A stretch of DNA of 64,000 nt from a virus: positions 1 through 64,000 of IMG/VR virus record IMGVR_UViG_3300049020_000031. The stretch is one strand, 5' to 3'. The notes under the pieces were generated by a model that saw nothing but the letters and a program-made list of their open reading frames with translations, did not search any database and was not told where the DNA came from. Shown here in pieces: positions 1 through 9,004 of this stretch (position 1 is its first letter; every line of letters begins with the position of its first letter). The translations under genes and the position numbers were made by a program.

Positions 1-33
1 GTTCTACGATAGTCGCGCCTTGCACCCATAATC

Positions 34-573
34 ATGAACATCAATTACGAAGAACCAGAGGAATTCTGGGAGACTCCATGTGACAAAAAATATGACGTAT
101 GGCACCTTCGATTCGGACGAAGGTACATGATGTTGGATCTGGGGTCTTGGTTCTTTCAAGGACGAATTAGTTGTCATCTATCAGTGGAGCATGGAACAGT
201 TGATGAAACAAATCCACGAGTGGCGGCGCTAGTCAAGAAGGTTATCGTCGGTGATTCTCAGGATCTTCCCAACATGGTGTGGGAGTTGAACGCACACCCG
301 GAAACCATGGCCGAAGAATTCAAGGCGCTGCAATCAATGGATAGACTGGTCAGAGATCGTCTGATGCAATTGTATCGAGCAGATGCCCTACAGAGCTGTC
401 TGGAATCCGAGAATGAAATGAAGAAGTGGGAACCACGAGCCCTTTTCCCCGACATGATGTCTTTGGAAAAATGGGAACAACATGGTGGTTGGTATGGCAT
501 GGATGAGCGCGATAAAGTAATTGCCATGTTGTCCAATGACAGGTTGGCTGAATATGTGAGAGACTATGGATGA
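34..573 (+). CDS. hypothetical protein (paralog of next ORF)
   Basis: 179 aa ORF; C-terminal W..H.GWYG(M/L).E..K....LS.D.L shared with 566..1060. Confidence 0.75.
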   Translation: MNINYEEPEEFWETPCDKKYDVWHLRFGRRYMMLDLGSWFFQGRISCHLSVEHGTVDETNPRVAALVKKVIVGDSQDLPNMVWELNAHPETMAEEFKALQSMDRLVRDRLMQLYRADALQSCLESENEMKKWEPRALFPDMMSLEKWEQHGGWYGMDERDKVIAMLSNDRLAEYVRDYG

Positions 574-1060
574 AGTTGTTTACGATTTCAGATCATCGAT
601 CGGCCCACACCAACTTAGTGTTTGTCTGGAGCAATTGTTCCTGAACGGAGTTCTGGTATTAGCTATAAACGGCAAACCTATCAACCTATATCTGAGTGAT
701 AGTAATCTGGGTTCCTTCCCAGACGCGTTCCTGGATATGATCTGTGGTGAAACAAAGGGACGAGGGGAAATGGCTGACCTCATGATTGCCATTGATTGGC
801 CCAGTAAGACCCCCAGTGCAAACATATTGGCAAACTTTGATACCCAGCTTGCCAATATGCGCAGGTACATGAGAACCCAGACCTATTTTCCCAACGAACT
901 ATTGGATTCCAGGGAAAGAATGAATCAATGGATAGCTCATCAGGGTTGGTATGGCCTAGGGGAATCAGAAAAAATTCAACATATACTGAGTGACGATGAA
1001 TTGGGACATTGCTTCAAACAATTTGATCCCAACAAGACCTATTGGATCTGGGAGATGTGA
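566..1060 (+). CDS. hypothetical protein (paralog of previous ORF)
   Basis: 164 aa ORF overlapping upstream stop; WIAHQGWYGLGESEK motif. Confidence 0.75.
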   Translation: MDEVVYDFRSSIGPHQLSVCLEQLFLNGVLVLAINGKPINLYLSDSNLGSFPDAFLDMICGETKGRGEMADLMIAIDWPSKTPSANILANFDTQLANMRRYMRTQTYFPNELLDSRERMNQWIAHQGWYGLGESEKIQHILSDDELGHCFKQFDPNKTYWIWEM

Positions 1061-1087
1061 TGTACAACCAGGGATTCACAATAGGCA

Positions 1088-1127
1088 ATTCAACGAGATT
1101 GTCACGATTATTCAACGAGATTGTCAC
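1088..1127. repeat. 18-bp direct repeat ATTCAACGAGATTGTCAC x2
   Basis: exact copies at 1088-1105 and 1110-1127 (period 22). Confidence 0.9.
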
Positions 1128-1225
1128 TTCGTTCCAGGAATCTCCAGGTAGATTTTGAGGAATTTGACAGGAACTCAACATATGGCGCCACCATAGTGTA
1201 GAGTTATGGCAACTATATCAACCAA

Positions 1226-1636
1226 ATGAATATGCAAGACTACGAAAAACAGATCATCGTATTGAGAAAAGATCTCGATATGGGAAAGGGTAAACTCATC
1301 GCCCAAGGTGCCCACGCAAGTATGGGTGCGATCCTGCGGAATGGATCGTTTCAAACCAATCCTGACGGAAAGACTCAGTTTGTGATTGACCTCGATCCAG
1401 CCATAGAAGGTTGGCTTCGTGGTTCTTTTACCAAGATTGCCGTATGGTGTGCGGATGAAGCCGAGTTGATGGCATTACATCACCAAGCCCTGGATGCTGG
1501 ACTTCATACGATCCTAATCAAGGATAACGGCAAGACTGCCTTCCATGGTGTTCCGACTCATACCGCTATTGCGATTGGTCCGGCACTTGCTTCCGTTCTT
1601 GATCCTATCACCAGACATTTGAAGTTGATTAACTGA
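1226..1636 (+). CDS. pth2: peptidyl-tRNA hydrolase, Pth2 family
   Basis: KQIIVLRKDLDMGKGKLIAQGAHAS, TKIAV, IKDNGKT, TAIAIGP match Pth2 signatures. Confidence 0.92.
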   Translation: MNMQDYEKQIIVLRKDLDMGKGKLIAQGAHASMGAILRNGSFQTNPDGKTQFVIDLDPAIEGWLRGSFTKIAVWCADEAELMALHHQALDAGLHTILIKDNGKTAFHGVPTHTAIAIGPALASVLDPITRHLKLIN

Positions 1637-1854
1637 TGTCATTCTTTACCTCGATGTCTGAGAACCTCATGAGAAAACTTCAGGGGTTGGCGTTTAAACC
1701 CTCCTTCTGGTGTCGAATGGGTATCCACAAGTGGGAGAGATGGAACCATCGAGAGATAAAGCATGAGCTCTACTTAACACGATACATTTGCTCCACAAGA
1801 GAATGTGAATACTGTGGTAAGTTGGAAAAACAAACTCGTGAGTTGTTGAAATGA
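1636..1854 (+). CDS. small Cys/His-rich phage protein
   Basis: WCRMGIHKW...CEYCG; translationally coupled. Confidence 0.7.
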   Translation: MSFFTSMSENLMRKLQGLAFKPSFWCRMGIHKWERWNHREIKHELYLTRYICSTRECEYCGKLEKQTRELLK

Positions 1855-2057
1855 GTGATTCCCAAGATGTAATAGACACATTAACATATGGTGATCGTCA
1901 ACCCAACATGTGGTGCCGTATTGGTATTCATAAGTGGACTAGATGGAAGATAGTCCACTCTGGTAGGTACTCGGACACCAAGAGTTTGTACTACGATATG
2001 CAGACTGACTGTAAACAATGCGGTCTTCCAAAACTAAAAGAAGTGGTTCAGAAATGA
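1851..2057 (+). CDS. small Cys/His-rich phage protein (paralog of previous)
   Basis: WCRIGIHKW...CKQCG; ATGA overlap. Confidence 0.7.
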   Translation: MSDSQDVIDTLTYGDRQPNMWCRIGIHKWTRWKIVHSGRYSDTKSLYYDMQTDCKQCGLPKLKEVVQK

Positions 2058-2623
2058 AAAAGCAAGTTCAATATCGACATGGTGATCTATTGTCACACAA
2101 AGGCCGATTCGTCATGCACGGCTGTAACGCTCAGGGTGTTATGGGTTCCGGTGTTGCAAAAGAAATCAGAGCAACCTATCCATTGGCATACACCAAGTAT
2201 CGAGAAAAGTACGAGGAAGAAAACAAACTGGTGATGGGCTCCGTCGTCGCGGTAGATTGTGGTCGACATGTGATCTTCAATGCCATCACCCAAGAATTCT
2301 TTGGTAAGGATGGTCGGAGGTACGTGGACTACTCCGCGATATCCACCGCCCTTGTTTCGATCAACAAGCTGATCAATGACGCCAAACGAGAATTTGAGGG
2401 TAATCGATTCGCCCAACAAAGTAGGGGATATGGTTGGACTCCTTTTGAAGAAGAGGAACCCATTGAGCTGGCCATGCCCTTGATTGGTGCTGGTCTTGGT
2501 GGTGGGGATTGGGGAATCATTTCCAACATCCTCAGCCAGGACTATGAATTCCAACCAGTTGTCTATATTCGTGAGCTCGAACAATATCAAAAGATTGTTA
2601 AAGAATATCAGCAGGTAGATTGA
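2054..2623 (+). CDS. macro domain protein (ADP-ribose / Appr-1-p processing family)
   Basis: GDLL, HGCNAQGVMGSGVA, MPLIGAGLGGGDW motifs; start moved to ATG 2054 (ATGA overlap). Confidence 0.9.
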   Translation: MKKQVQYRHGDLLSHKGRFVMHGCNAQGVMGSGVAKEIRATYPLAYTKYREKYEEENKLVMGSVVAVDCGRHVIFNAITQEFFGKDGRRYVDYSAISTALVSINKLINDAKREFEGNRFAQQSRGYGWTPFEEEEPIELAMPLIGAGLGGGDWGIISNILSQDYEFQPVVYIRELEQYQKIVKEYQQVD

Positions 2624-2647
2624 AATCTAGAAAATTGGTAGTAGAAT
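2620..2647 (+). promoter_or_regulatory. sigma70-like promoter for the tRNA-like RNA array
   Basis: TTGAAA(2620-2625)-16 nt-TAGAAT(2642-2647), about 10 nt before unit 1. Confidence 0.6.
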
Positions 2648-2656
2648 AGAGTTATT

Positions 2657-2790
2657 AGGATAGATGCAGCAATCTATAACAATGGAATTTGAGAACTAAG
2701 GGTTCGAGCCCCTTTCTAGTGAGCAATCACTAGGTGGCGAAATTGGTAAACGCATCAAATGTTTTGGGTCGAAAGACCTGCTATCCTGTT
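2657..2790 (+). ncRNA. permuted tRNA-like (YrlA/Y-RNA-like) RNA, unit 1
   Basis: outer helix AGGATAG/CTATCCT; CAGCAA; anticodon-like stem ATTTGA/TCAAAT; T arm AAGGG-TTCGAGC-CCCTT; acceptor hairpin TCTAGTGA-GCAA-TCACTAGG; D arm TGGCGAAATTGGTAAACGC; extra GGTC-GAAA-GACC hairpin. Confidence 0.85.
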
Positions 2791-2797
2791 AAAATTT

Positions 2798-2890
2798 GGA
2801 ATGTGCGCAGCAAATAAAATTGCAGGTTCGACTCCTGTTATGAATGGCAACGTTCATAACTTTGCCCATGGAAGGGCATCACATTCCGTT
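2798..2890 (+). ncRNA. permuted tRNA-like RNA, unit 2 (minimal)
   Basis: outer helix GGAATGTG/CACATTCC; CAGCAA; T arm GCAGG-TTCGACT-CCTGT; acceptor hairpin TATGAATG-GCAA-CGTTCATA; D-like hairpin TGCCC-ATGGAA-GGGCA. Confidence 0.8.
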
Positions 2891-2896
2891 AAATTT

Positions 2897-3014
2897 GGGT
2901 TCCGTTCAGCAACTAATTTTCAATCAGCCTGTCGCGGGTTCGAGCCCCGCATAGTTCCTTGGGACTATTAGCTCAGTTGGGAGAGCAGCCGACTCATAAA
3001 AAAGTGAACCCGTT
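2897..3014 (+). ncRNA. permuted tRNA-like RNA, unit 3 (tRNA-CAU-like)
   Basis: outer helix GGGTTC/GAACCC; CAGCAA; T arm GCGGG-TTCGAGC-CCCGC; acceptor ATAGTTC-CTTG-GGACTAT; canonical D arm TAGCTCAGTTGGGAGAGC; GCCGA-CTCATAA. Confidence 0.87.
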
Positions 3015-3028
3015 ATTTTGAAGTTTTT

Positions 3029-3173
3029 TGGATCGATACAGCATACTTAAATGTATATCAAATTGAAATCATGAGGTTCGATTCCTCATAGCCCACCTGG
3101 TGGGTTTGGTCTAGTGGCAGGACATCATTCCCGAAAGGGGCAGCAGGCCGGGATGTTCCCGGAACGATCCAGT
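3029..3173 (+). ncRNA. permuted tRNA-like RNA, unit 4
   Basis: outer helix TGGATCG/CGATCCA; CAGCAT; T arm TGAGG-TTCGATT-CCTCA; acceptor hairpin AGCCCAC-CTG-GTGGGTT; D arm TGGTCTAGTGGCAGGAC; two extra hairpins. Confidence 0.82.
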
Positions 3174-3177
3174 AAAT

Positions 3178-3208
3178 GATGAGCGGAGCAATCCGCTCAT
3201 CGCCTTTT
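3178..3208 (+). terminator. intrinsic terminator closing the RNA array
   Basis: GATGAGCGGA-GCAA-TCCGCTCATC followed by GCCTTTT. Confidence 0.75.
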
Positions 3209-3247
3209 GAGATTGATGAATTCCACTTGTGATGCTAGAGTTGGCTA

Positions 3248-3736
3248 ATGAATATACGTGACTTGAAATCCAAATTTGCGTCTTGGTTGATGCGCGACGC
3301 TATCAACCAAGAGGTTGACCTGCAAGTGAAGAAGTTCTTCGACTCTCGAAACCAGGATCGGCAGAGTTTTCGAGAACACGAGGCGCAATCACGACTTGGT
3401 AAATTGTGGATCGTAGTGTCCAATGAAATCGAAGATATCAGGGTGTGTTACGGGAAAGAATTCATGTTTATCACTATGGATAATACGCCGGCCGTGGTGT
3501 TCCATGATGTGGTAACGGGCGAGGACTTGATATGCGGTGGTGCTATTCTGGCGTATAATGAACAACGATATCTAGCTCTAGTTGGGATGGACCCCAACGC
3601 TAGAATTTCCCTATTCTTCAATCGCGAAGAACACAAACCTACCGATAAAACCAAAACACAAGCCAGGCCAACCACTCCCGTCAGCGAACAGATTGAAAAA
3701 ACTCGCCTCGCTGTAGAAAAATTCATAAAAGTGTAG
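3248..3736 (+). CDS. hypothetical protein
   Basis: 162 aa ORF between RNA array and DUF2828 gene. Confidence 0.7.
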   Translation: MNIRDLKSKFASWLMRDAINQEVDLQVKKFFDSRNQDRQSFREHEAQSRLGKLWIVVSNEIEDIRVCYGKEFMFITMDNTPAVVFHDVVTGEDLICGGAILAYNEQRYLALVGMDPNARISLFFNREEHKPTDKTKTQARPTTPVSEQIEKTRLAVEKFIKV

Positions 3737-3788
3737 TTGCCAGGTTTTCCAGGTGCTACAATGCATTCCTCACAGATAATGAAACCCA

Positions 3789-3823
3789 GGTTGGGTTCAG
3801 CAAACTCAATTTAACCAACCAGT
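3789..3823 (+). promoter_or_regulatory. leader element: scaffold-only copy of the array motif
   Basis: GGTTGG-GTT-CAGCAA...CCAACC-AGT directly before RBS AAGGA (3829-3833) and ATG 3839; extended -10 TGcTACAAT at 3754-3762. Confidence 0.7.
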
Positions 3824-3838
3824 AAACAAAGGAACAAT

Positions 3839-5245
3839 ATGGATCTCGCAAACGCATTCAAGGCTCAAGAAACCACCACCACGAACGGTATGGCCGCTCT
3901 CCAGTCCACCATGGACTCTAACGTGGACCTGTTCTTCAAGATTGGTGCAAGCCGCGGAAAAAACATTGTTCCTCAGTTCACCGCAGCATTCGTGGAAAAT
4001 CGCGAACTGGCTCTGCGTATCGCGCTGTGGGCACGTGACGTTCGCGGTGGTGCAGGTGAACGTCAACTGTTCCGTGATGTTCTGAACTATCTGGAGGGTG
4101 TCGATCCTGATGCAGCTCGCTCCCTGATTCTCTCGACTCCTGAACTGGGTCGTTGGGATGATCTCCTGATTGTGAAGACTCCAGCTCTCCGCGACCTGGC
4201 GTTCAGCTTGATCAAGGCCGGTCTGGAATCCCAGAACGGTCTGTGTGCAAAGTGGATGCCACGTAAGGGCAAGGATGCTGAAGCTCTGCGAGCATACCTG
4301 GGATACAGCCCAAAGCGCTATCGCAAGACTTTGGTTACCTTGACGCAAGTCGTGGAAACCCAAATGTGTGCCAAGGATTGGGATAACATCAACTTCTCCC
4401 ACGTTCCTTCCGTGGCCGCTGGCCGTTACCGCAAGGCATTCAAGAAGAATGCCGAAGAAGCATACACGAAGTATGCTGAAGGTCTGGCTACCGGTGAAAC
4501 CAAGATCAACGCTGGTGCGGTGTTCCCTTATGATGTCCTGAAGGGCAACATGAATGGTTACCAACGAGCAACTCTGACCAAGGTTGAACGCGATGTGATC
4601 TTGGCTCAGTGGGCTGCACTGGAAAATGTGGTTGGTGATGCCAAGATGTTGCCTATGGTTGACGTGTCCGGCTCCATGAGCTGCCCAGCTGGTACCAAGA
4701 GCTCGGTGACTTGTATGGACGTGGCTGTGAGCTTGGGCCTGTATCTGGCTGAAAAGAACACTGGTTCGTTCCGTGATATGTTCATCACGTTCACGGAACA
4801 ACCAACTCTGTATGCTCTGAAGGGTAACGTGTTGGATAAGCTGGACCAGATGACTGGACAGGTTGGTTACAACACGAACCTGGAAGCCGCGTACGATGCG
4901 TTGCTGAAGGTCGCAGTAACCTCCAAGGTTGCTCAGGAAGACATGCCTGAGTACATTGTGATGTTGTCGGATATGCAGTTTGACGGTTGCACTGGTCGCC
5001 CAACGGCTTCCGCGATCGACATGATCCGTGACAAGTACAAGGCTGCTGGTTACACCGCTCCAAAGGTGGTGTTCTGGAACATCAACGCGCACGACAATGT
5101 GCCAGTGAAGTTCAATGATCTGGGCGTTGCTCTGATCAGCGGCTTCTCCCCAACGATCGTTAAGTCGGTCCTGACGGCACAGAAGTTCAGCCCACAAGGC
5201 ATCATGTTGGAAGCTGTGATGTCTGATCGCTACAAGCCACAGTAA
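3839..5245 (+). CDS. DUF2828-type Ro60/TROVE-like helical domain + vWA protein
   Basis: TTNG, DLFF, ARDVRGGAGER, GRWDDL, AKWMPR N-terminal motifs; MIDAS DVSGSM...NTN...SDMQFD, VFWN, SGFSP; strong codon bias. Confidence 0.88.
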   Translation: MDLANAFKAQETTTTNGMAALQSTMDSNVDLFFKIGASRGKNIVPQFTAAFVENRELALRIALWARDVRGGAGERQLFRDVLNYLEGVDPDAARSLILSTPELGRWDDLLIVKTPALRDLAFSLIKAGLESQNGLCAKWMPRKGKDAEALRAYLGYSPKRYRKTLVTLTQVVETQMCAKDWDNINFSHVPSVAAGRYRKAFKKNAEEAYTKYAEGLATGETKINAGAVFPYDVLKGNMNGYQRATLTKVERDVILAQWAALENVVGDAKMLPMVDVSGSMSCPAGTKSSVTCMDVAVSLGLYLAEKNTGSFRDMFITFTEQPTLYALKGNVLDKLDQMTGQVGYNTNLEAAYDALLKVAVTSKVAQEDMPEYIVMLSDMQFDGCTGRPTASAIDMIRDKYKAAGYTAPKVVFWNINAHDNVPVKFNDLGVALISGFSPTIVKSVLTAQKFSPQGIMLEAVMSDRYKPQ

Positions 5246-5259
5246 TGTGGTGAGGATGA

Positions 5260-5289
5260 AATAAAACCGGCCTAATCGCCGGTTTTATT
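5260..5289. terminator. bidirectional-type intrinsic terminator
   Basis: AATAAAACCGGC-CTAATC-GCCGGTTTTATT. Confidence 0.8.
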
Positions 5290-5328
5290 CATTTGTAATG
5301 TAGAATGCCATAACTTTGGAGGAATTTC

Positions 5329-6414
5329 ATGATTGATATCAATAGCCTCAACGTTTCCGATGAAATCAAGGCTACACTGCAAGATATGCGAGATGCTGAC
5401 GTGGATGATAAAACAATTCAATTGTGCCTGAACCTCTACGAATCTATGGCGAAAGAAGGGAAACGAAAACCTCTCCACCCAGATGGCGAAGAAGTGAGTC
5501 GCATCGAAATGAAGAAGATCTTGGGATCACTTGTTGATTCCCGGATGCTAATCATCGAAGATGATTCTCATAAGCAGAGCGAAATGCTAAAGCGGTCTTG
5601 GGCTCTAATCGATGCCCCCAAGAATTACGATTTCCAAGATGACGACTTCCGAAGGCAGGATGTCATGCGCGAGTTGATGCCGGAAGGATACGCAACTAAG
5701 TTCAAAACCGATTCTGGTGAAGACGCATACCAATGGAGTTCGATCTGGAGATGCCCGGAATGTGATGAATTGGTTCATCTTCGTCTGGTCGGTACCACTA
5801 TCTCTTTCCACAGTCATGTGGCATGCGAGAATCATTCCGACTTCAAGGTCACGATTGATTTCCCCACAGGCGAGGTACTGGCGCTTGACTGGTATGATGG
5901 GTTATCCGCTTGGAGAAAGCAATACCCAGAGTTTGAAGATCTCCCATCAGTCAACCAACAGATTGGCATTCATGCCGTGACCGATCTCTATGCTGAACAC
6001 AATATCTGTCACTTCTTTGTGGGTAATACTTGCCCTGGTGTGTATCTCACGGAAGATGGAAAAATTGTGATGCGTCCTGATGAAGGTGTTCGGACCAAAG
6101 ATAATGTCAACGAATTTGATGAAGACGAGCCTACGACCACAAGTGAAACCTTCCTGAATCCAGTCAAACTGAATAACATTTGCACTGATCTCTGGTGGGC
6201 AACTCTGGTGGATCGTAAAACTTGGGAAGGTATGATGAATTCCATTCCGAGAAGAAAGAATGCCAAGGCTCTTGATCTTGACGCTGAGTGGGCGGAATTG
6301 AAAGCAGACAAGCACGTAATTTCCGTACCCGCAGGTAGGTATGAATTCCATTGTAACTCTGGTTTCATGGATGGTGACCACGTTCGTCGAATCACTGGGG
6401 TGAAGGTATCTTGA
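5329..6414 (+). CDS. hypothetical phage protein
   Basis: 361 aa ORF with RBS GGAGG; CPEC and HFFVGNTCP motifs. Confidence 0.8.
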   Translation: MIDINSLNVSDEIKATLQDMRDADVDDKTIQLCLNLYESMAKEGKRKPLHPDGEEVSRIEMKKILGSLVDSRMLIIEDDSHKQSEMLKRSWALIDAPKNYDFQDDDFRRQDVMRELMPEGYATKFKTDSGEDAYQWSSIWRCPECDELVHLRLVGTTISFHSHVACENHSDFKVTIDFPTGEVLALDWYDGLSAWRKQYPEFEDLPSVNQQIGIHAVTDLYAEHNICHFFVGNTCPGVYLTEDGKIVMRPDEGVRTKDNVNEFDEDEPTTTSETFLNPVKLNNICTDLWWATLVDRKTWEGMMNSIPRRKNAKALDLDAEWAELKADKHVISVPAGRYEFHCNSGFMDGDHVRRITGVKVS

Positions 6415-6785
6415 GATCTACGATATCTGATTGGGAAGATATTCCACTGCGTAAGAAATTCGAGATTGCCCAACCGTCATTCAAATGGGCTGATCATCCT
6501 GGAACCATCCGGGTGATTCAAGATTATCCTGATGATACGCTTTTTGGGATTACCAATCCGTCACTGAGTCAACGTGATGCCATCAAGAAGTTTGCGGATT
6601 TGCACTCTTCGGAACAGGTTTCATTGTACTATGGTTACAATGTTGAGTTTTGCTGTGGTCTTGAGGAAGATCTTCAGACTGAAAAAGAGGACTACAAAAA
6701 TTTGTACGAAGTTGAATTCTTCCTCAACGTGAGGACATTTCAAGGAGTTGCATTCAAGTTAGCTTTTTCTGATTGGTTTGAATAA
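6411..6785 (+). CDS. hypothetical protein (FKL-tail family)
   Basis: 124 aa; ends VAFKLAFSDWFE. Confidence 0.65.
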   Translation: MRSTISDWEDIPLRKKFEIAQPSFKWADHPGTIRVIQDYPDDTLFGITNPSLSQRDAIKKFADLHSSEQVSLYYGYNVEFCCGLEEDLQTEKEDYKNLYEVEFFLNVRTFQGVAFKLAFSDWFE

Positions 6786-6789
6786 GCGC

Positions 6790-6817
6790 TTGACTAGTTC
6801 ACCAAATGAACTATAAT
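6790..6817 (+). promoter_or_regulatory. sigma70-like promoter with CCAAATGAA spacer motif
   Basis: TTGACT-agttcaCCAAATGAAc-TATAAT. Confidence 0.8.
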
Positions 6818-6844
6818 CAACTTATCGCAAACAAGGAGTTGAAC

Positions 6845-7192
6845 ATGAACGTAAAGCAAGCAATTATCGAAGTGTGTGTCCGCAAAGCTGAATTTGCTGA
6901 CCAGTCGATGGTGAAGTTTGTTGCAAAGCTCAATGAAAGTCCTATCTACGCTTTGTCGTGGGCTGATACGTTCCTGAAGGTAACCACCGAGAAGCAACTC
7001 TATTCGGGACTGAAGACTTTGTTGGAAACAACGTCTCTAACCATGGCTGATCTGGAAAAAGAATACATGGAACGTCTGATCCGTTTGTCGGGCTCCGGCG
7101 TGTCCAGCTCGGATATGTCAAACGTTATGACCAAGGTTGAACTGGCTGTGACCGGTGAAATCCTGCAAATGGTGTCCTCTTTCAAGGACTGA
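6845..7192 (+). CDS. hypothetical protein
   Basis: RBS AAGGAG before ATG 6845; downstream of promoter. Confidence 0.75.
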   Translation: MNVKQAIIEVCVRKAEFADQSMVKFVAKLNESPIYALSWADTFLKVTTEKQLYSGLKTLLETTSLTMADLEKEYMERLIRLSGSGVSSSDMSNVMTKVELAVTGEILQMVSSFKD

Positions 7193-7223
7193 TTAGTCAT
7201 AAATAGCTGTAAAGGAGGCTTTT

Positions 7224-7463
7224 ATGGCTAAGAAAATTGATGAATCCAAGATCGTACCGGGCTTCAGAGGCCCGGTATTTGTCATTGACGAAGGTAAGGA
7301 TGGTGGCTATTACGGCGTTTGGTTCAAGCACCCAAGCAACATGTGGTCTCATATTTGTTCTGGTCTCGCACCAGAAAATGCAACGGCTATCGCCAATGCG
7401 TTGAATGAACGAACCCTGTTCGGTGGTTTGAACAAGCATTTGAAAGCCCTTAGACTGCACTAA
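7224..7463 (+). CDS. hypothetical protein
   Basis: RBS AAGGAGG; TAAATA box at 7200-7205. Confidence 0.75.
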   Translation: MAKKIDESKIVPGFRGPVFVIDEGKDGGYYGVWFKHPSNMWSHICSGLAPENATAIANALNERTLFGGLNKHLKALRLH

Positions 7464-7481
7464 GTCTTTCAAACCAAGTTT

Positions 7482-7520
7482 ACAATATGGCTAGATGAGT
7501 GTATCATCTAGCCATATTGT
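7482..7520. repeat. 17-bp perfect inverted repeat overlapping a promoter
   Basis: ACAATATGGCTAGATGA-gtgta-TCATCTAGCCATATTGT; overlaps TTTACA-17-TATCAT. Confidence 0.85.
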
Positions 7521-7534
7521 TTTAGGAGTTCAAA

Positions 7535-7768
7535 ATGCTGAAGAAGTTCTTTGTTGGTATGTTTGGCCCCAAGACTATGACTATTCAAATTCATCTTATC
7601 GGCGGCTCCGTGATCACTCTGGATAACGTCATCGAAGTGAAAACGTCCACCAGTAATACCACCAACCGTTTCGTGTCGTACAGTATCGTACGCAAAGAAG
7701 GATGCAAAACATTCTTTGATATCTGCATGTCGGATATCTCGGCAGTTGTTCAAGTTCCAAACAAATAA
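7535..7768 (+). CDS. hypothetical protein
   Basis: 77 aa, RBS AGGAG. Confidence 0.7.
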   Translation: MLKKFFVGMFGPKTMTIQIHLIGGSVITLDNVIEVKTSTSNTTNRFVSYSIVRKEGCKTFFDICMSDISAVVQVPNK

Positions 7769-7777
7769 GAGGAAATC

Positions 7778-8041
7778 ATGGCAAAAAGCAAAAAGTATCG
7801 TGACACACTGGCGATGGCTGGTAGTGACCTCTACAAACTCCTGGATGACGGCGAAGATGCAAAAGCCGAGAAGTCCTATTTCGAGACTGAACAAGCAAGC
7901 AAGAAGACTATGGGCGAACATGCTCATCGAGTGTGGAAAGAGAACAAGAAACATTATGAATTTGCGGCTCGCAAAGCCAGCGAACACATGGCTCACGTTT
8001 ACGCTCGAGTAAACTATTTGCTGACAACTCCGCAAAGTTGA
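7778..8041 (+). CDS. hypothetical protein
   Basis: 87 aa, RBS GAGG. Confidence 0.72.
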   Translation: MAKSKKYRDTLAMAGSDLYKLLDDGEDAKAEKSYFETEQASKKTMGEHAHRVWKENKKHYEFAARKASEHMAHVYARVNYLLTTPQS

Positions 8042-8042
8042 A

Positions 8043-8471
8043 ATGAAACGAGTAGAATCCATCACGGATGTACTACCAGAGACGATATATGAGATCTTCT
8101 TTGGTGCCGCTACCAAAAGTATGTTCATTGATACGGCCAATAATTGGGCCCGTCTCTTGATATATTTCCCCAAAGCAGAAACGCAAGGTTATGATAGGGG
8201 ATGGATTGACGTCGAAGTTTCACGAATGGGGTTTGGTGTAATTACCGCTCACCGAGTTATAGACAAATCCCCAGTTCCAATCAAGGTATTCAAACGGCAT
8301 TTTGATGACTCGTGGTTGATTGACCCCACGAGTCTTCGGTTCAGACTAGCCAATCCCGATTGGCGGAAGCAGACTATGACGAAATGCTTAGAGGAGATTT
8401 TGGAAAAAGAAAAAGAACTTGAGCAGCTTCACGCTCTAGCTGGTATGGTTCAGAACAGCCGTGTTTACTGA
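8043..8471 (+). CDS. hypothetical protein
   Basis: 142 aa, adjacent to upstream stop. Confidence 0.65.
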   Translation: MKRVESITDVLPETIYEIFFGAATKSMFIDTANNWARLLIYFPKAETQGYDRGWIDVEVSRMGFGVITAHRVIDKSPVPIKVFKRHFDDSWLIDPTSLRFRLANPDWRKQTMTKCLEEILEKEKELEQLHALAGMVQNSRVY

Positions 8472-8510
8472 AACCAGGTTTTCTTAAATATGTAACAGTT
8501 GAAAAATAAG

Positions 8511-8549
8511 TTCATTTGGTGTTGATTCTATTTCATTTGGTGTTATAGT
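8511..8549 (+). promoter_or_regulatory. promoter with two inverted copies of the spacer motif (TTCATTTGG)
   Basis: TTCATTTGGTGTT at 8511-8523 and 8532-8544; TTGATT-16-TATAGT. Confidence 0.7.
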
Positions 8550-8606
8550 TGATACATGGTGCAGGTAAACTGCAAAACTTGAAACAAACTGAAAAGGAAA
8601 TAAATC

Positions 8607-8966
8607 ATGGCTGCAAATGTACAAGTTCTGAAGGTTGGTCACGCACTGGTTCAAGGCGCACGCGGTGCAGCTGGTGGCGCTCCTAGTAAGGATAGCGTTT
8701 ACGGTGTGGCGCTGATCCAAGGCAACCTGGTGACATTTGGTGGTCGTCGTGGCGGTACATTGCGTTTCAAGACGTATCGCAAGGCTGATACTGCCAAGGT
8801 TCTGGCTACTTTTGACACCAAGTTGGTGAAAGCACAAGGCGGCTTCAACTACACGGACGTTCAAGAAGTTGAAACTGTGGTGAACCCTGCAGAACTGGGC
8901 CGCATGTTCTACAAGGCAATGGCTCACGGCAAGCTGAACACCAACAGCACCCGCAAAGTCAAGTAA
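8607..8966 (+). CDS. small basic hypothetical protein
   Basis: 119 aa, RBS AAGGA, biased codons, own promoter and terminator. Confidence 0.8.
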   Translation: MAANVQVLKVGHALVQGARGAAGGAPSKDSVYGVALIQGNLVTFGGRRGGTLRFKTYRKADTAKVLATFDTKLVKAQGGFNYTDVQEVETVVNPAELGRMFYKAMAHGKLNTNSTRKVK

Positions 8967-8981
8967 TCCCTTGATCGTTGC

Positions 8982-9004
8982 AAAACCCCACATCGTGGGG
9001 TTTT
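8982..9004 (+). terminator. intrinsic terminator
   Basis: AAAACCCCAC-ATC-GTGGGGTTTT. Confidence 0.75.

What the first reader, a model, noticed from the sequence alone, without database searches (positions are those of the whole stretch)
3789..3841. Fifth, scaffold-only copy of the array motif in the DUF2828 gene leader: likely autoregulatory binding site
Seen: GGTTGG-GTT-CAGCAA-actcaatttaa-CCAACC-AGT has the same grammar as the four array units (GG-starting helix, short linker, CAGCAA, 3' strand followed by (A)GT). It has no tRNA domain and ends 5 nt before the RBS. Inference: helix+CAGCA is the protein recognition element, and free protein would bind its own mRNA leader to match its level to the RNA pool. 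This is the best internal evidence that the RNAs and this protein form one system.
Basis: partly seen in the sequence, partly recalled or inferred. Interest (0 to 1): 0.85.

Follow-up and report, generated by a model that had tools for sequence, protein, structure and literature searches.

The report
Partner-RNA handle in Ro60-like gene's leader
Just before the start of a phage gene for a Ro60-shaped RNA-binding protein lies a stripped-down copy of the "handle" carried by that protein's presumed partner RNAs. Nearly all close relatives keep such a copy there, so the protein probably binds its own message and limits its own synthesis, although no binding has been shown.

Summary
Window 3787-3822 (+) is an 8-position helix (7 pairs, 6 contiguous), then GTT, then CAGCAA. 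It uses the same frame as the four tRNA-like units at 2656-3172: 11 nt from helix start to the C of CAGCA. It ends 6 nt before the SD (3829-3833) of the DUF2828/DUF7788 gene.

- **Conservation:** 57 of 58 non-redundant homologous loci (54-65% identity) have a unit ending 5-35 nt before the ATG. The helix covaries strongly.
- **Independent model:** a covariance model built without the window ranks 3785-3826 first in the 141.5-kb virus record.
- **Protein:** its model matches Ro60 structures only (Foldseek E 1.6e-8).
- **Link to the gene:** unrelated ORFs separate the array from the gene in four loci, and each time one unit stays on the gene. In three of them a perfect TTGACA-17-TATAAT promoter sits just upstream. 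Cargo-less units occur only at this position.

Autoregulation is plausible (about 0.45) but untested. Hairpin-only units also occur away from the gene, so a co-transcribed YrlB-like RNA remains a serious rival. The same leader handle was noted earlier in this scan on other phage genomes. I found no paper describing it.

The parts
2620..2647 (+). Sigma-70-like promoter (TTGAAA-16-TAGAAT) in front of the RNA array
   Evidence: Consensus match only.
2656..2788 (+). Array unit 1: helix TAGGATAG/CTATCCTG, linker ATG, CAGCAA, tRNA-like cargo
2797..2888 (+). Array unit 2: helix TGGAATGTG/CACATTCCG, CAGCAA, T-arm-like cargo
   Evidence: Rfam YrlA 19 bits, below threshold.
2896..3012 (+). Array unit 3: helix TGGGTTC/GAACCCG, CAGCAA, tRNA-like cargo
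   Evidence: Rfam YrlA 33.5 bits, E 7e-5, below the gathering score of 69.
3028..3172 (+). Array unit 4: helix TTGGATCG/CGATCCAG, CAGCA, tRNA-like cargo. Its 3' flank AGTAAA is the same as that of the leader unit.
3178..3209 (+). Terminator-like hairpin (10-bp stem, then GCCTTTTG) that closes the array
   Evidence: Read. Not picked up by the scan, because the T run has only 4 T.
3248..3736 (+). ORF of 162 aa with no family match, separating the array from the leader unit
   Evidence: No relative in any of the 80 related loci.
3754..3762 (+). Extended -10-like TGcTACAAT, 24 nt upstream of the unit. A second -10-like GATAAT is at 3775-3780.
   Evidence: Consensus match only; the transcription start is not mapped.
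3787..3794 (+). Leader unit, 5' strand (CAGGTTGG)
3795..3803 (+). Leader unit, linker GTT plus conserved core CAGCAA
   Evidence: C, G and C of the core are invariant in 33 of 33 aligned leaders.
3804..3814 (+). Leader unit, 11-nt remainder of the loop. No cargo and no inner hairpin.
3815..3822 (+). Leader unit, 3' strand (CCAACCAG), followed by TAAA
3829..3833 (+). Shine-Dalgarno AAGGA, 6 nt after the helix and 5 nt before the ATG
3839..5245 (+). Gene for the Ro60-like protein (468 aa; DUF2828 + DUF7788; vWA MIDAS D-x-S-x-S at 275-279)
5260..5289 (+). Terminator-like hairpin after the gene

Best explanation
The element at 3787-3822 is the gene-proximal, cargo-less member of the family of Y-RNA-like units encoded next to this phage's Ro60-like protein. 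It is transcribed as the first structured part of the protein's own mRNA, and its helix ends 6 nt before the SD.

It keeps only what all units share: a short terminal helix, a 3-nt linker and C(A/C)GCAA. This shared part is most likely the protein's binding site.

**Proposed mechanism (inferred, not shown).** Protein not occupied by the array RNAs binds this handle on its own message. By its bulk next to the SD it hinders 30S binding. Synthesis of the protein is thereby matched to the pool of partner RNAs. This would be autogenous translational repression by mimicry of the protein's RNA ligand, as in ribosomal-protein and ThrRS operators.

**Shown:** homology of the element to the array units; its conservation at this position; helix covariation; the Ro60-like fold of the protein.

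**Inferred:** binding and repression.
For: 1. **Same architecture as the four array units, to the nucleotide.** There are 11 nt from helix start to the core, pair 3 is G-C and pair 6 is U-A.
2. **Position is conserved.** 57 of 58 non-redundant homolog loci have a unit ending 5-35 nt before the ATG. In the one exception, L055, the unit abuts an 89-aa ORF that ends 2 nt before the gene's ATG.
3. **The abutment is specific to this gene.** Other units are followed by an SD plus ATG ORF in 3 of 96 cases, the same as random positions at 3.1%.
4. **The helix covaries**, and model R1, built without the window, ranks the element first in 141.5 kb.
5. **One unit stays with the gene.** In WIN, L002, L013 and L012 the array is separated from the gene by mutually unrelated ORFs, yet exactly one unit remains on the gene. 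In L002, L012 and L013 a perfect TTGACA-17-TATAAT promoter ends 10-13 nt before that unit, so the unit would start the mRNA.
6. **Cargo-less units occur only in the leader position.** Units of 48 nt or less are found only there (WIN, L002, L012, L031, L051), with at least 4 independent origins on the protein tree. This suggests that only the handle is needed at this site.
7. **The helix is close to the SD.** The helix-to-SD distance is 0-17 nt and is 2 nt or less in 8 of 48 leaders. In L015, L036 and Stenotrophomonas phage DLP_6 the last helix G is the first G of GGAG.
8. **The protein folds like Ro60.** The top 13 PDB matches are all Ro60, E 1.6e-8 to 2.5e-5. Ro60 proteins bind a terminal helix plus adjacent motif in Y RNAs (PMC4201824, PMC12135203).
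9. **The grammar follows the protein family** down to 31% identity, in mycobacteriophage Rumpelstiltskin.
Against: - There are no binding, transcript-end or expression data. No RNA run was listed for this phage.
- Hairpin-only units also stand inside arrays and far from the gene, for example L005 1503-1570, L012 431-502 and L003 3956-4023. A tRNA-less unit is therefore not by itself an operator.
- The unit-to-SD spacer (0-17 nt, often TTAAA- or TTGAA-like) resembles the 6-8-nt inter-unit linkers. If units are cut out of a precursor, as in M. smegmatis (PMC4201824), the same cut would sever the handle from the mRNA.
- In about ten loci the unit abutting the SD is a full tRNA-like one.
- More distant homologs lack a leader unit: KVP40, S13, RSP15, Ahp1, FelixO1 and Rumpelstiltskin.
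- The window's copy has an A.A mismatch and only 6 contiguous pairs. Its folding energy is not distinguishable from shuffles and its R1 score is modest at 18.6 bits.
Confidence: 0.48

Rival explanations
1. It is simply one more partner RNA. In this reading it is a minimal hairpin-type Y-like RNA, comparable to YrlB or Yrn2, that is co-transcribed with the gene and then cut out. Its place next to the SD reflects tight packing of the operon and coupled expression of protein and RNA, not control of translation.
For: - Hairpin-type Y RNAs encoded between YrlA and rsr and processed from one precursor are documented (PMC4201824).
- Short hairpin-only units occur at non-leader places in these phages.
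- Inter-unit gaps of 6-8 nt are like the unit-to-SD spacer.
- Full tRNA-like units can occupy the same place.
Against: - Units do not abut other genes more often than chance, 3 of 96.
- One unit stays on the gene after four independent ORF insertions.
- Cargo-less forms occur only here. A 36-nt RNA with nothing but the handle has no obvious job as a free Y RNA, except to plug the protein.
Confidence: 0.3
2. It is a protein-independent 5'-terminal stem-loop. It would protect the mRNA from 5'-end-dependent decay, or mark a processing site, and it resembles the array units only through common descent.
For: In L002, L012 and L013 the predicted transcription start lies about 3-6 nt before the helix. 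That is the geometry of known 5' stabilising hairpins (established knowledge, for example the ompA leader).
Against: - The unpaired C(A/C)GCAA core and the linker are conserved along with the helix: C, G and C are invariant in 33 of 33 aligned leaders. A plain stabiliser would not need this.
- The window's hairpin is weak, -8.6 kcal/mol.
Confidence: 0.1
3. The handle acts positively or in cis. It would capture the nascent protein for co-translational assembly, or protein binding would open or stabilise the leader and raise translation.
For: The evidence for binding is the same as for the main explanation. Nothing in the sequence fixes the sign of the effect.
Against: No alternative structure that hides the SD is predicted or conserved. 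A bulky protein 0-17 nt from the SD is more likely to hinder than to help.
Confidence: 0.08
4. It is a chance look-alike of the array motif.
For: A loose grammar is common, about 1 per 18 kb per strand. The folding z-score is weak.
Against: The same place carries a unit in 57 of 58 relatives, with covariation. It is the top R1 hit in 283 kb of searched strands and lies exactly in the leader.
Confidence: 0.02

Closest known systems
Ro60 (Rsr) with Y RNAs: bacterial and phage YrlA, YrlB, Yrn1 and Yrn2 (Chen et al. 2014, PMC4201824; Rfam RF02553), and Thermus phage phiLo Ro60 with Yrl1 and Yrl2 (PMC12135203)
   Same: - A ring-shaped HEAT-repeat plus vWA protein (Foldseek).
- Small RNAs on the same strand next to the gene, closed by a 5'/3' terminal helix with a conserved motif beside its 5' strand.
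- Both tRNA-like and hairpin-only forms exist.
- RNAs lie upstream of the gene in one transcription unit.
   Different: - The protein has no sequence-level match to TROVE or to Ro60 chains.
- The motif is C(A/C)GCAA rather than GNCGAA or CGAA.
- Array units fall below the YrlA gathering score, and the leader unit gives no YrlA hit.
- In the papers I read, no Y RNA is described as abutting the ribosome-binding site or as an operator.
Autogenous translational operators that mimic the protein's RNA ligand (ribosomal-protein leaders such as S8, S15, L1 and L20; the thrS leader that mimics tRNA-Thr; phage T4 RegA and gp32; MS2 coat protein). Cited from established knowledge.
   Same: A stripped-down copy of the protein's presumed RNA target lies in its own 5' leader next to the SD, and it is conserved with the gene.
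   Different: Repression and binding are not shown here. The same kind of element also exists as free-standing units.
Class I RNAs of dictyostelid social amoebae (Rfam RF01414; Kjellin et al. 2021, PMC7919456)
   Same: - A 6-bp terminal stem whose sequence covaries.
- A conserved motif ending in ACAGCAA right after the 5' strand, a variable A-rich interior, and an end in CUG(U).
- RF01414 is the top Rfam hit, over its full length, for the leader unit of L041 (18.9 bits).
   Different: - The score is below the gathering score of 41.5, and there is no hit for the window's own leader unit.
- These are eukaryotic stand-alone genes. Their known binder is an RRM protein, and no link to a Ro-like protein is published.
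- This is a resemblance only, not membership.

Membership tests
YrlA-type Y RNA (Rfam RF02553) | Reaches the family's gathering score (69 bits) | tested here: not met
   Leader unit: no YrlA hit at E up to 10. Array units: 33.5 and 19 bits.
YrlA-type Y RNA (Rfam RF02553) | tRNA-like domain (T arm, D arm, acceptor-like stem) | tested here: not met
   The leader unit has an 11-nt loop remainder and no cargo. The four array units do carry GGTTCGA T-arm-like parts.
YrlA-type Y RNA (Rfam RF02553) | GNCGAAN0-1G motif near the 5' end | tested here: not met
   The motif here is GTT-CAGCAA. Relatives have C(A/C)GCAA.
Y RNAs in the broad sense (partner RNAs of a Ro60-fold protein) | Encoded within a few kb of a Ro60-type gene, on the same strand | tested here: met
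   The unit ends 16 nt before the gene's ATG. All 120 R1 hits in 52 loci are on the gene's strand.
Y RNAs in the broad sense (partner RNAs of a Ro60-fold protein) | Bound by the Ro60-type protein | not testable with these tools
   No tool here models protein-RNA complexes, and there are no RIP or CLIP data.
Hairpin-type Y RNAs (YrlB, Yrn2) | [quoted passage not shown] | tested here: inconclusive
   There is no tRNA-like domain (met). The helix has only 6-8 positions and the loop is 20 nt and A-rich (not met). Stability is unknown, because no RNA run was listed.
Autogenous translational operators by RNA mimicry | The leader element resembles the protein's primary RNA ligand | tested here: met
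   Same frame and invariant positions as the array units. That the array RNAs are the ligand is itself an inference.
Autogenous translational operators by RNA mimicry | Element overlaps or adjoins the ribosome-binding site | tested here: met
   6 nt from helix to SD in the window. The range in relatives is 0-17 nt.
Autogenous translational operators by RNA mimicry | The protein represses translation of its own mRNA through the element | not testable with these tools
   Needs reporter, toeprint or binding assays.
Ro60 / TROVE protein family (for the gene 3839-5245) | HEAT-repeat ring plus vWA fold | tested here: met
   AF2 model with pLDDT 79.7. The Foldseek top 13 PDB hits are all Ro60, over the full length, TM 0.43-0.58.
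Ro60 / TROVE protein family (for the gene 3839-5245) | Pfam TROVE (PF05731) match or sequence similarity to Ro60 | tested here: not met
   Only DUF2828 and DUF7788 match at E up to 0.01. No Ro60 chain is found by phmmer or by profile search.
Ro60 / TROVE protein family (for the gene 3839-5245) | MIDAS motif D-x-S-x-S in the vWA domain | tested here: met
   D275, S277 and S279 are invariant in 40 sequences.
Dictyostelid Class I RNA (Rfam RF01414) | Reaches the gathering score (41.5 bits) | tested here: not met
   No hit for the window's leader. 18.9 bits for the L041 leader unit.

The most novel reading that the evidence does not exclude
A Ro60-fold protein controls its own translation through a minimal Y-RNA mimic in its mRNA leader, so that free protein is titrated against the pool of partner RNAs. 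This would be the first autogenous operator described for the Ro60/Y-RNA world. It would also define the minimal RNA determinant (short helix plus 3 nt plus CAGCAA) of a large, undescribed DUF2828 branch that is present in more than 700 phage records, including FelixO1, A511 and KVP40.
Probability: 0.4. Interest if true: 0.8.

Novelty: new variant of a known kind. Interest (0 to 1): 0.65.

Why it matters
- **The minimal binding determinant.** Ro60 and Y RNAs have been studied for decades, yet what sets the protein-to-RNA ratio is unknown. A 36-nt cargo-less handle against the ribosome-binding site would isolate the minimal binding determinant of a divergent Ro60 branch.
- **A testable feedback circuit.** It offers a simple, testable link between protein level and the partner-RNA pool.
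- **A practical marker.** The handle can be used to find and orient these RNA arrays in phage genomes, where some units are currently annotated as odd tRNAs.
- **Experiments are possible now.** Three cultured phages carry the arrangement: Aeromonas phage 4_4572, Stenotrophomonas phage DLP_6 and Synechococcus phage BUCT-ZZ01.

Tried and rejected
- **Thermodynamics alone:** folding of 3770-3845, 3785-3825 and 3740-3860 gives z-scores of 0.38, -1.66 and 0.17, which are not informative.
- **ARAGORN:** no tRNA in 1-9000.
- **Sequence searches of the protein against PDB chains:** neither the single sequence nor the profile finds Ro60. Only the fold search does.
- **NCBIfam:** no family for the protein or for the 162-aa ORF.
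- **Sequencing runs:** no RNA holder listed. The one strong DNA holder is probably the source sample, so no read laying was done.
- **Complex prediction:** not used, because it takes no RNA chain.
- **Regulon idea** (handles in front of other genes): rejected. R1 finds only two hits in the 141.5-kb record, and non-leader units abut ORFs at the chance rate.
- **Leader-specific core variant:** I first took CCGCA for CAGCA to be strongly leader-specific. On distinct sequences it is 12 of 40 against 10 of 86, Fisher p = 0.02 without correction for relatedness. It is suggestive only.
- **Alternative hairpin at 3783-3797** (AACCC/GGGTT) that would compete with the helix: not conserved in relatives, so dropped.
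- **Literal search for the Class I motif in papers:** found nothing relevant. The motif was read instead from the Rfam consensus.

Full report
**What is there.**
The window belongs to a 141.5-kb virus record. It codes on the + strand for the following, in order:
- a PTH2 peptidyl-tRNA hydrolase (1226-1636);
- a macro-domain protein (2018-2623);
- a promoter-like site (2620-2647);
- four RNA units (2656-2788, 2797-2888, 2896-3012, 3028-3172);
- a terminator-like hairpin (3178-3209);
- an orphan 162-aa ORF (3248-3736);
- the element in question;
- a 468-aa gene (3839-5245) with Pfam DUF2828 and DUF7788, PHROG 850 'RNA-binding protein'.

**The shared grammar is tighter than stated.**
In an 8-position frame, all five copies in the window share three features:
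- the C of CAGCA lies 11 nt after the first helix position;
- pair 3 is G-C;
- pair 6 is U-A.

The leader copy spans 3787-3822, with C-G at position 1, an A.A mismatch at position 2 and six contiguous pairs after that. Its 3' flank AGTAAA equals that of unit 4.

**Is it more than chance?**
Not on its own. Its folding energy is ordinary, and a loose form of the grammar turns up about once per 18 kb per strand.

The weight comes from relatives. I fetched 80 IMG/VR loci with homologs of 54-65% identity.
- In 57 of 58 non-redundant loci, a unit with the same frame ends 5-35 nt before the homolog's ATG.
- In the 58th, L055, the unit abuts an 89-aa ORF that ends 2 nt before the gene's ATG.
- An alignment of 33 such leaders, without the window, shows that the helix covaries. 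89.9% of cells are paired and 49 cells changed on both sides. None of 500 shuffles reached this, and slid registers gave at most 47%.
- A covariance model built from that alignment (R1) places 3785-3826 first in the 64-kb window (18.6 bits) and in the whole record.
- In 52 loci all 120 of its hits lie on the gene's strand.

**What the protein is.**
Sequence methods see no Ro60. An AlphaFold2 model from a 40-sequence alignment (pLDDT 79.7) finds only Ro60 structures as its 13 best PDB matches. These are Thermus phage phiLo, human, Xenopus and Deinococcus Ro60, aligned over the full length at E 1.6e-8 to 2.5e-5. The vWA MIDAS residues D275, S277 and S279 are invariant.

The locus is therefore a divergent Ro60-like protein with Y-RNA-like units. 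Two array units give sub-threshold YrlA hits.

The helix-plus-CAGCAA grammar follows the protein family a long way. Mycobacteriophage Rumpelstiltskin, at 31% identity, has three such units, each ending in CCAGT (two in CCAGTAAA), just downstream of its 'Ro-like RNA binding protein'. This co-occurrence is the main argument that the handle is the protein's recognition element. Binding itself is not shown.

**Is the leader copy special, or just the last unit of an array?**

Evidence that it is tied to the gene:
1. Units do not generally abut genes. Only 3 of 96 non-leader units are followed by an SD plus ATG ORF within 5-35 nt, equal to random positions at 3.1%.
2. In WIN, L002, L013 and L012 the array is separated from the gene by ORFs that are unrelated to one another. 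These are independent events, and each left exactly one unit on the gene.
3. In L002, L012 and L013 a perfect TTGACA-17-TATAAT promoter ends 10-13 nt before that unit, so the unit would begin the mRNA. The window has TGcTACAAT 24 nt upstream.
4. Cargo-less units of 48 nt or less occur only in the leader position (WIN, L002, L012, L031, L051). They arose at least four times on the protein tree. The window's nearest relative, L001, has a long unit there.
5. The helix lies 0-17 nt from the SD. In several lineages, including cultured Stenotrophomonas phage DLP_6, its last G is the first G of GGAG.

Evidence against a pure operator reading:
- Hairpin-only units of 50-70 nt also stand inside arrays and far from the gene. 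This matches the documented YrlB/Yrn2 class, which lies upstream of rsr and is processed from one precursor (PMC4201824).
- Inter-unit gaps of 6-8 nt resemble the unit-to-SD spacer, so a processing cut could detach the handle from the mRNA.
- About ten loci have a full tRNA-like unit at the leader position.
- More distant homologs have no leader unit: KVP40, S13, RSP15, Ahp1, FelixO1 and Rumpelstiltskin.
- A leader-biased core variant (CCGCA) is only weakly supported: 12 of 40 against 10 of 86, p = 0.02, uncorrected for relatedness.

**Most likely mechanism.**
The handle is part of the 5' UTR and binds the Ro60-like protein. I put the element being real and homologous to the array units at about 0.95, and binding at about 0.8.

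The position next to the SD, the retention after rearrangements and the loss of cargo only at this site all point the same way. The most likely role is feedback repression of translation by free protein, relieved when the array RNAs soak up the protein. I put this at about 0.45-0.5. The main rival is a co-transcribed minimal partner RNA with no role in cis (0.3).

**Comparison with what is known.**
- Ro60 with YrlA, YrlB or Yrn RNAs, and phiLo Ro60 with two upstream Yrl RNAs, are the closest systems (PMC4201824, PMC12135203).
- The papers I read describe neither a unit against the ribosome-binding site nor autoregulation.
- Full-text searches for DUF2828 returned only plant and tardigrade papers.
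- The Rfam Class I RNA model of Dictyostelium has the same layout (6-bp stem, motif ending in ACAGCAA, end in CUG). It is the top hit for one relative's leader unit, though below threshold, and it does not hit the window's copy. This is a resemblance only.

**Earlier notes of this scan.**
The same idea, a handle-only hairpin on the DUF2828 leader, was noted and followed up on other phage genomes. Those are unchecked AI notes and I did not count them as evidence. My results agree with them. They add four points: the independent ORF insertions, the consensus promoters, the chance-level control for other genes, and the cultured phages that carry the arrangement.

**Verdict.**
This is a real, conserved, cargo-less copy of the partner-RNA handle in the leader of a Ro60-like gene. 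Autoregulation is the best-supported reading but remains untested. I class it as a new variant of a known kind, with interest 0.65.

Noticed in passing
L041 1037-1100, L038 900-964, L025 2413-2476, L085 1438-1495 and other short units in the related loci: Many hairpin-only units carry an inner 5-bp stem with a 7-nt loop of the form C-U-N-N-N-A-A (CTTGAAA, CTGTAAA, CTCATAA, CTGAAAA, CTTCTAA and others). This is the layout of a tRNA anticodon loop. By RNAfold, 21 of 41 leader short units and 12 of 31 other short units have 7-nt loops. The window's leader unit lacks this hairpin.
   Followed up: partly
L082 3360-3480 and 3490-3602 (Cronobacter phage S13): Features annotated tRNA-Ser (121 nt) and tRNA-OTHER (113 nt) lie just downstream of the DUF2828 gene. 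They match the tRNA model only with a large insertion. They are probably tRNA-like partner RNAs annotated as tRNAs.
   Followed up: partly
L090 about 2930-3230 (Mycobacterium phage Rumpelstiltskin, downstream of gp54): Three units with a GG-helix, TAA or TA linker and CAGCAA, each ending in CCAGT (two in CCAGTAAA). One has a GGGTTCGAGTCCC T arm. They lie beside a 'Ro-like RNA binding protein' that is only 31% identical to the window's protein.
   Followed up: partly
L084 1325-1393 and 1399-1474; L085 520-1495; L086 1426-1473: Three cultured phages carry the leader arrangement. Synechococcus phage BUCT-ZZ01 has two short units, the second ending 18 nt before the ATG. Aeromonas phage 4_4572 has six R1 hits, the last ending 9 nt before the ATG. 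Stenotrophomonas phage DLP_6 has a near-minimal unit whose helix overlaps GGAG.
   Followed up: yes
L055 2134-2201, ORF 2221-2490, gene at 2492: This is the only close relative without a unit against the gene. Its unit instead abuts an 89-aa ORF that ends 2 nt before the DUF2828 ATG, which looks like a two-gene operon behind the handle.
   Followed up: partly
window 1226-1636 and 2018-2623: A PTH2 peptidyl-tRNA hydrolase and a macro-domain protein (PHROG 335 'phosphatase') lie directly upstream of the RNA array. This is a tRNA and RNA-repair flavoured neighbourhood.
   Followed up: no
L041 1041-1096: Rfam's Dictyostelium Class I RNA model (RF01414) is the best Rfam hit for this leader unit, over the model's full length. 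The score is 18.9 bits, below the gathering score of 41.5. The model's consensus shows a 6-bp stem, CUUACAGCAA and an end in CUG.
   Followed up: partly
window 3783-3797: [quoted passage not shown] It is not seen in relatives.
   Followed up: partly
L083 3948-4009 (Ralstonia phage RSP15): A short hairpin-only unit (R1 41.1 bits) lies about 1 kb downstream of the DUF2828 gene, among tRNA genes. This gene has no leader unit.
   Followed up: no
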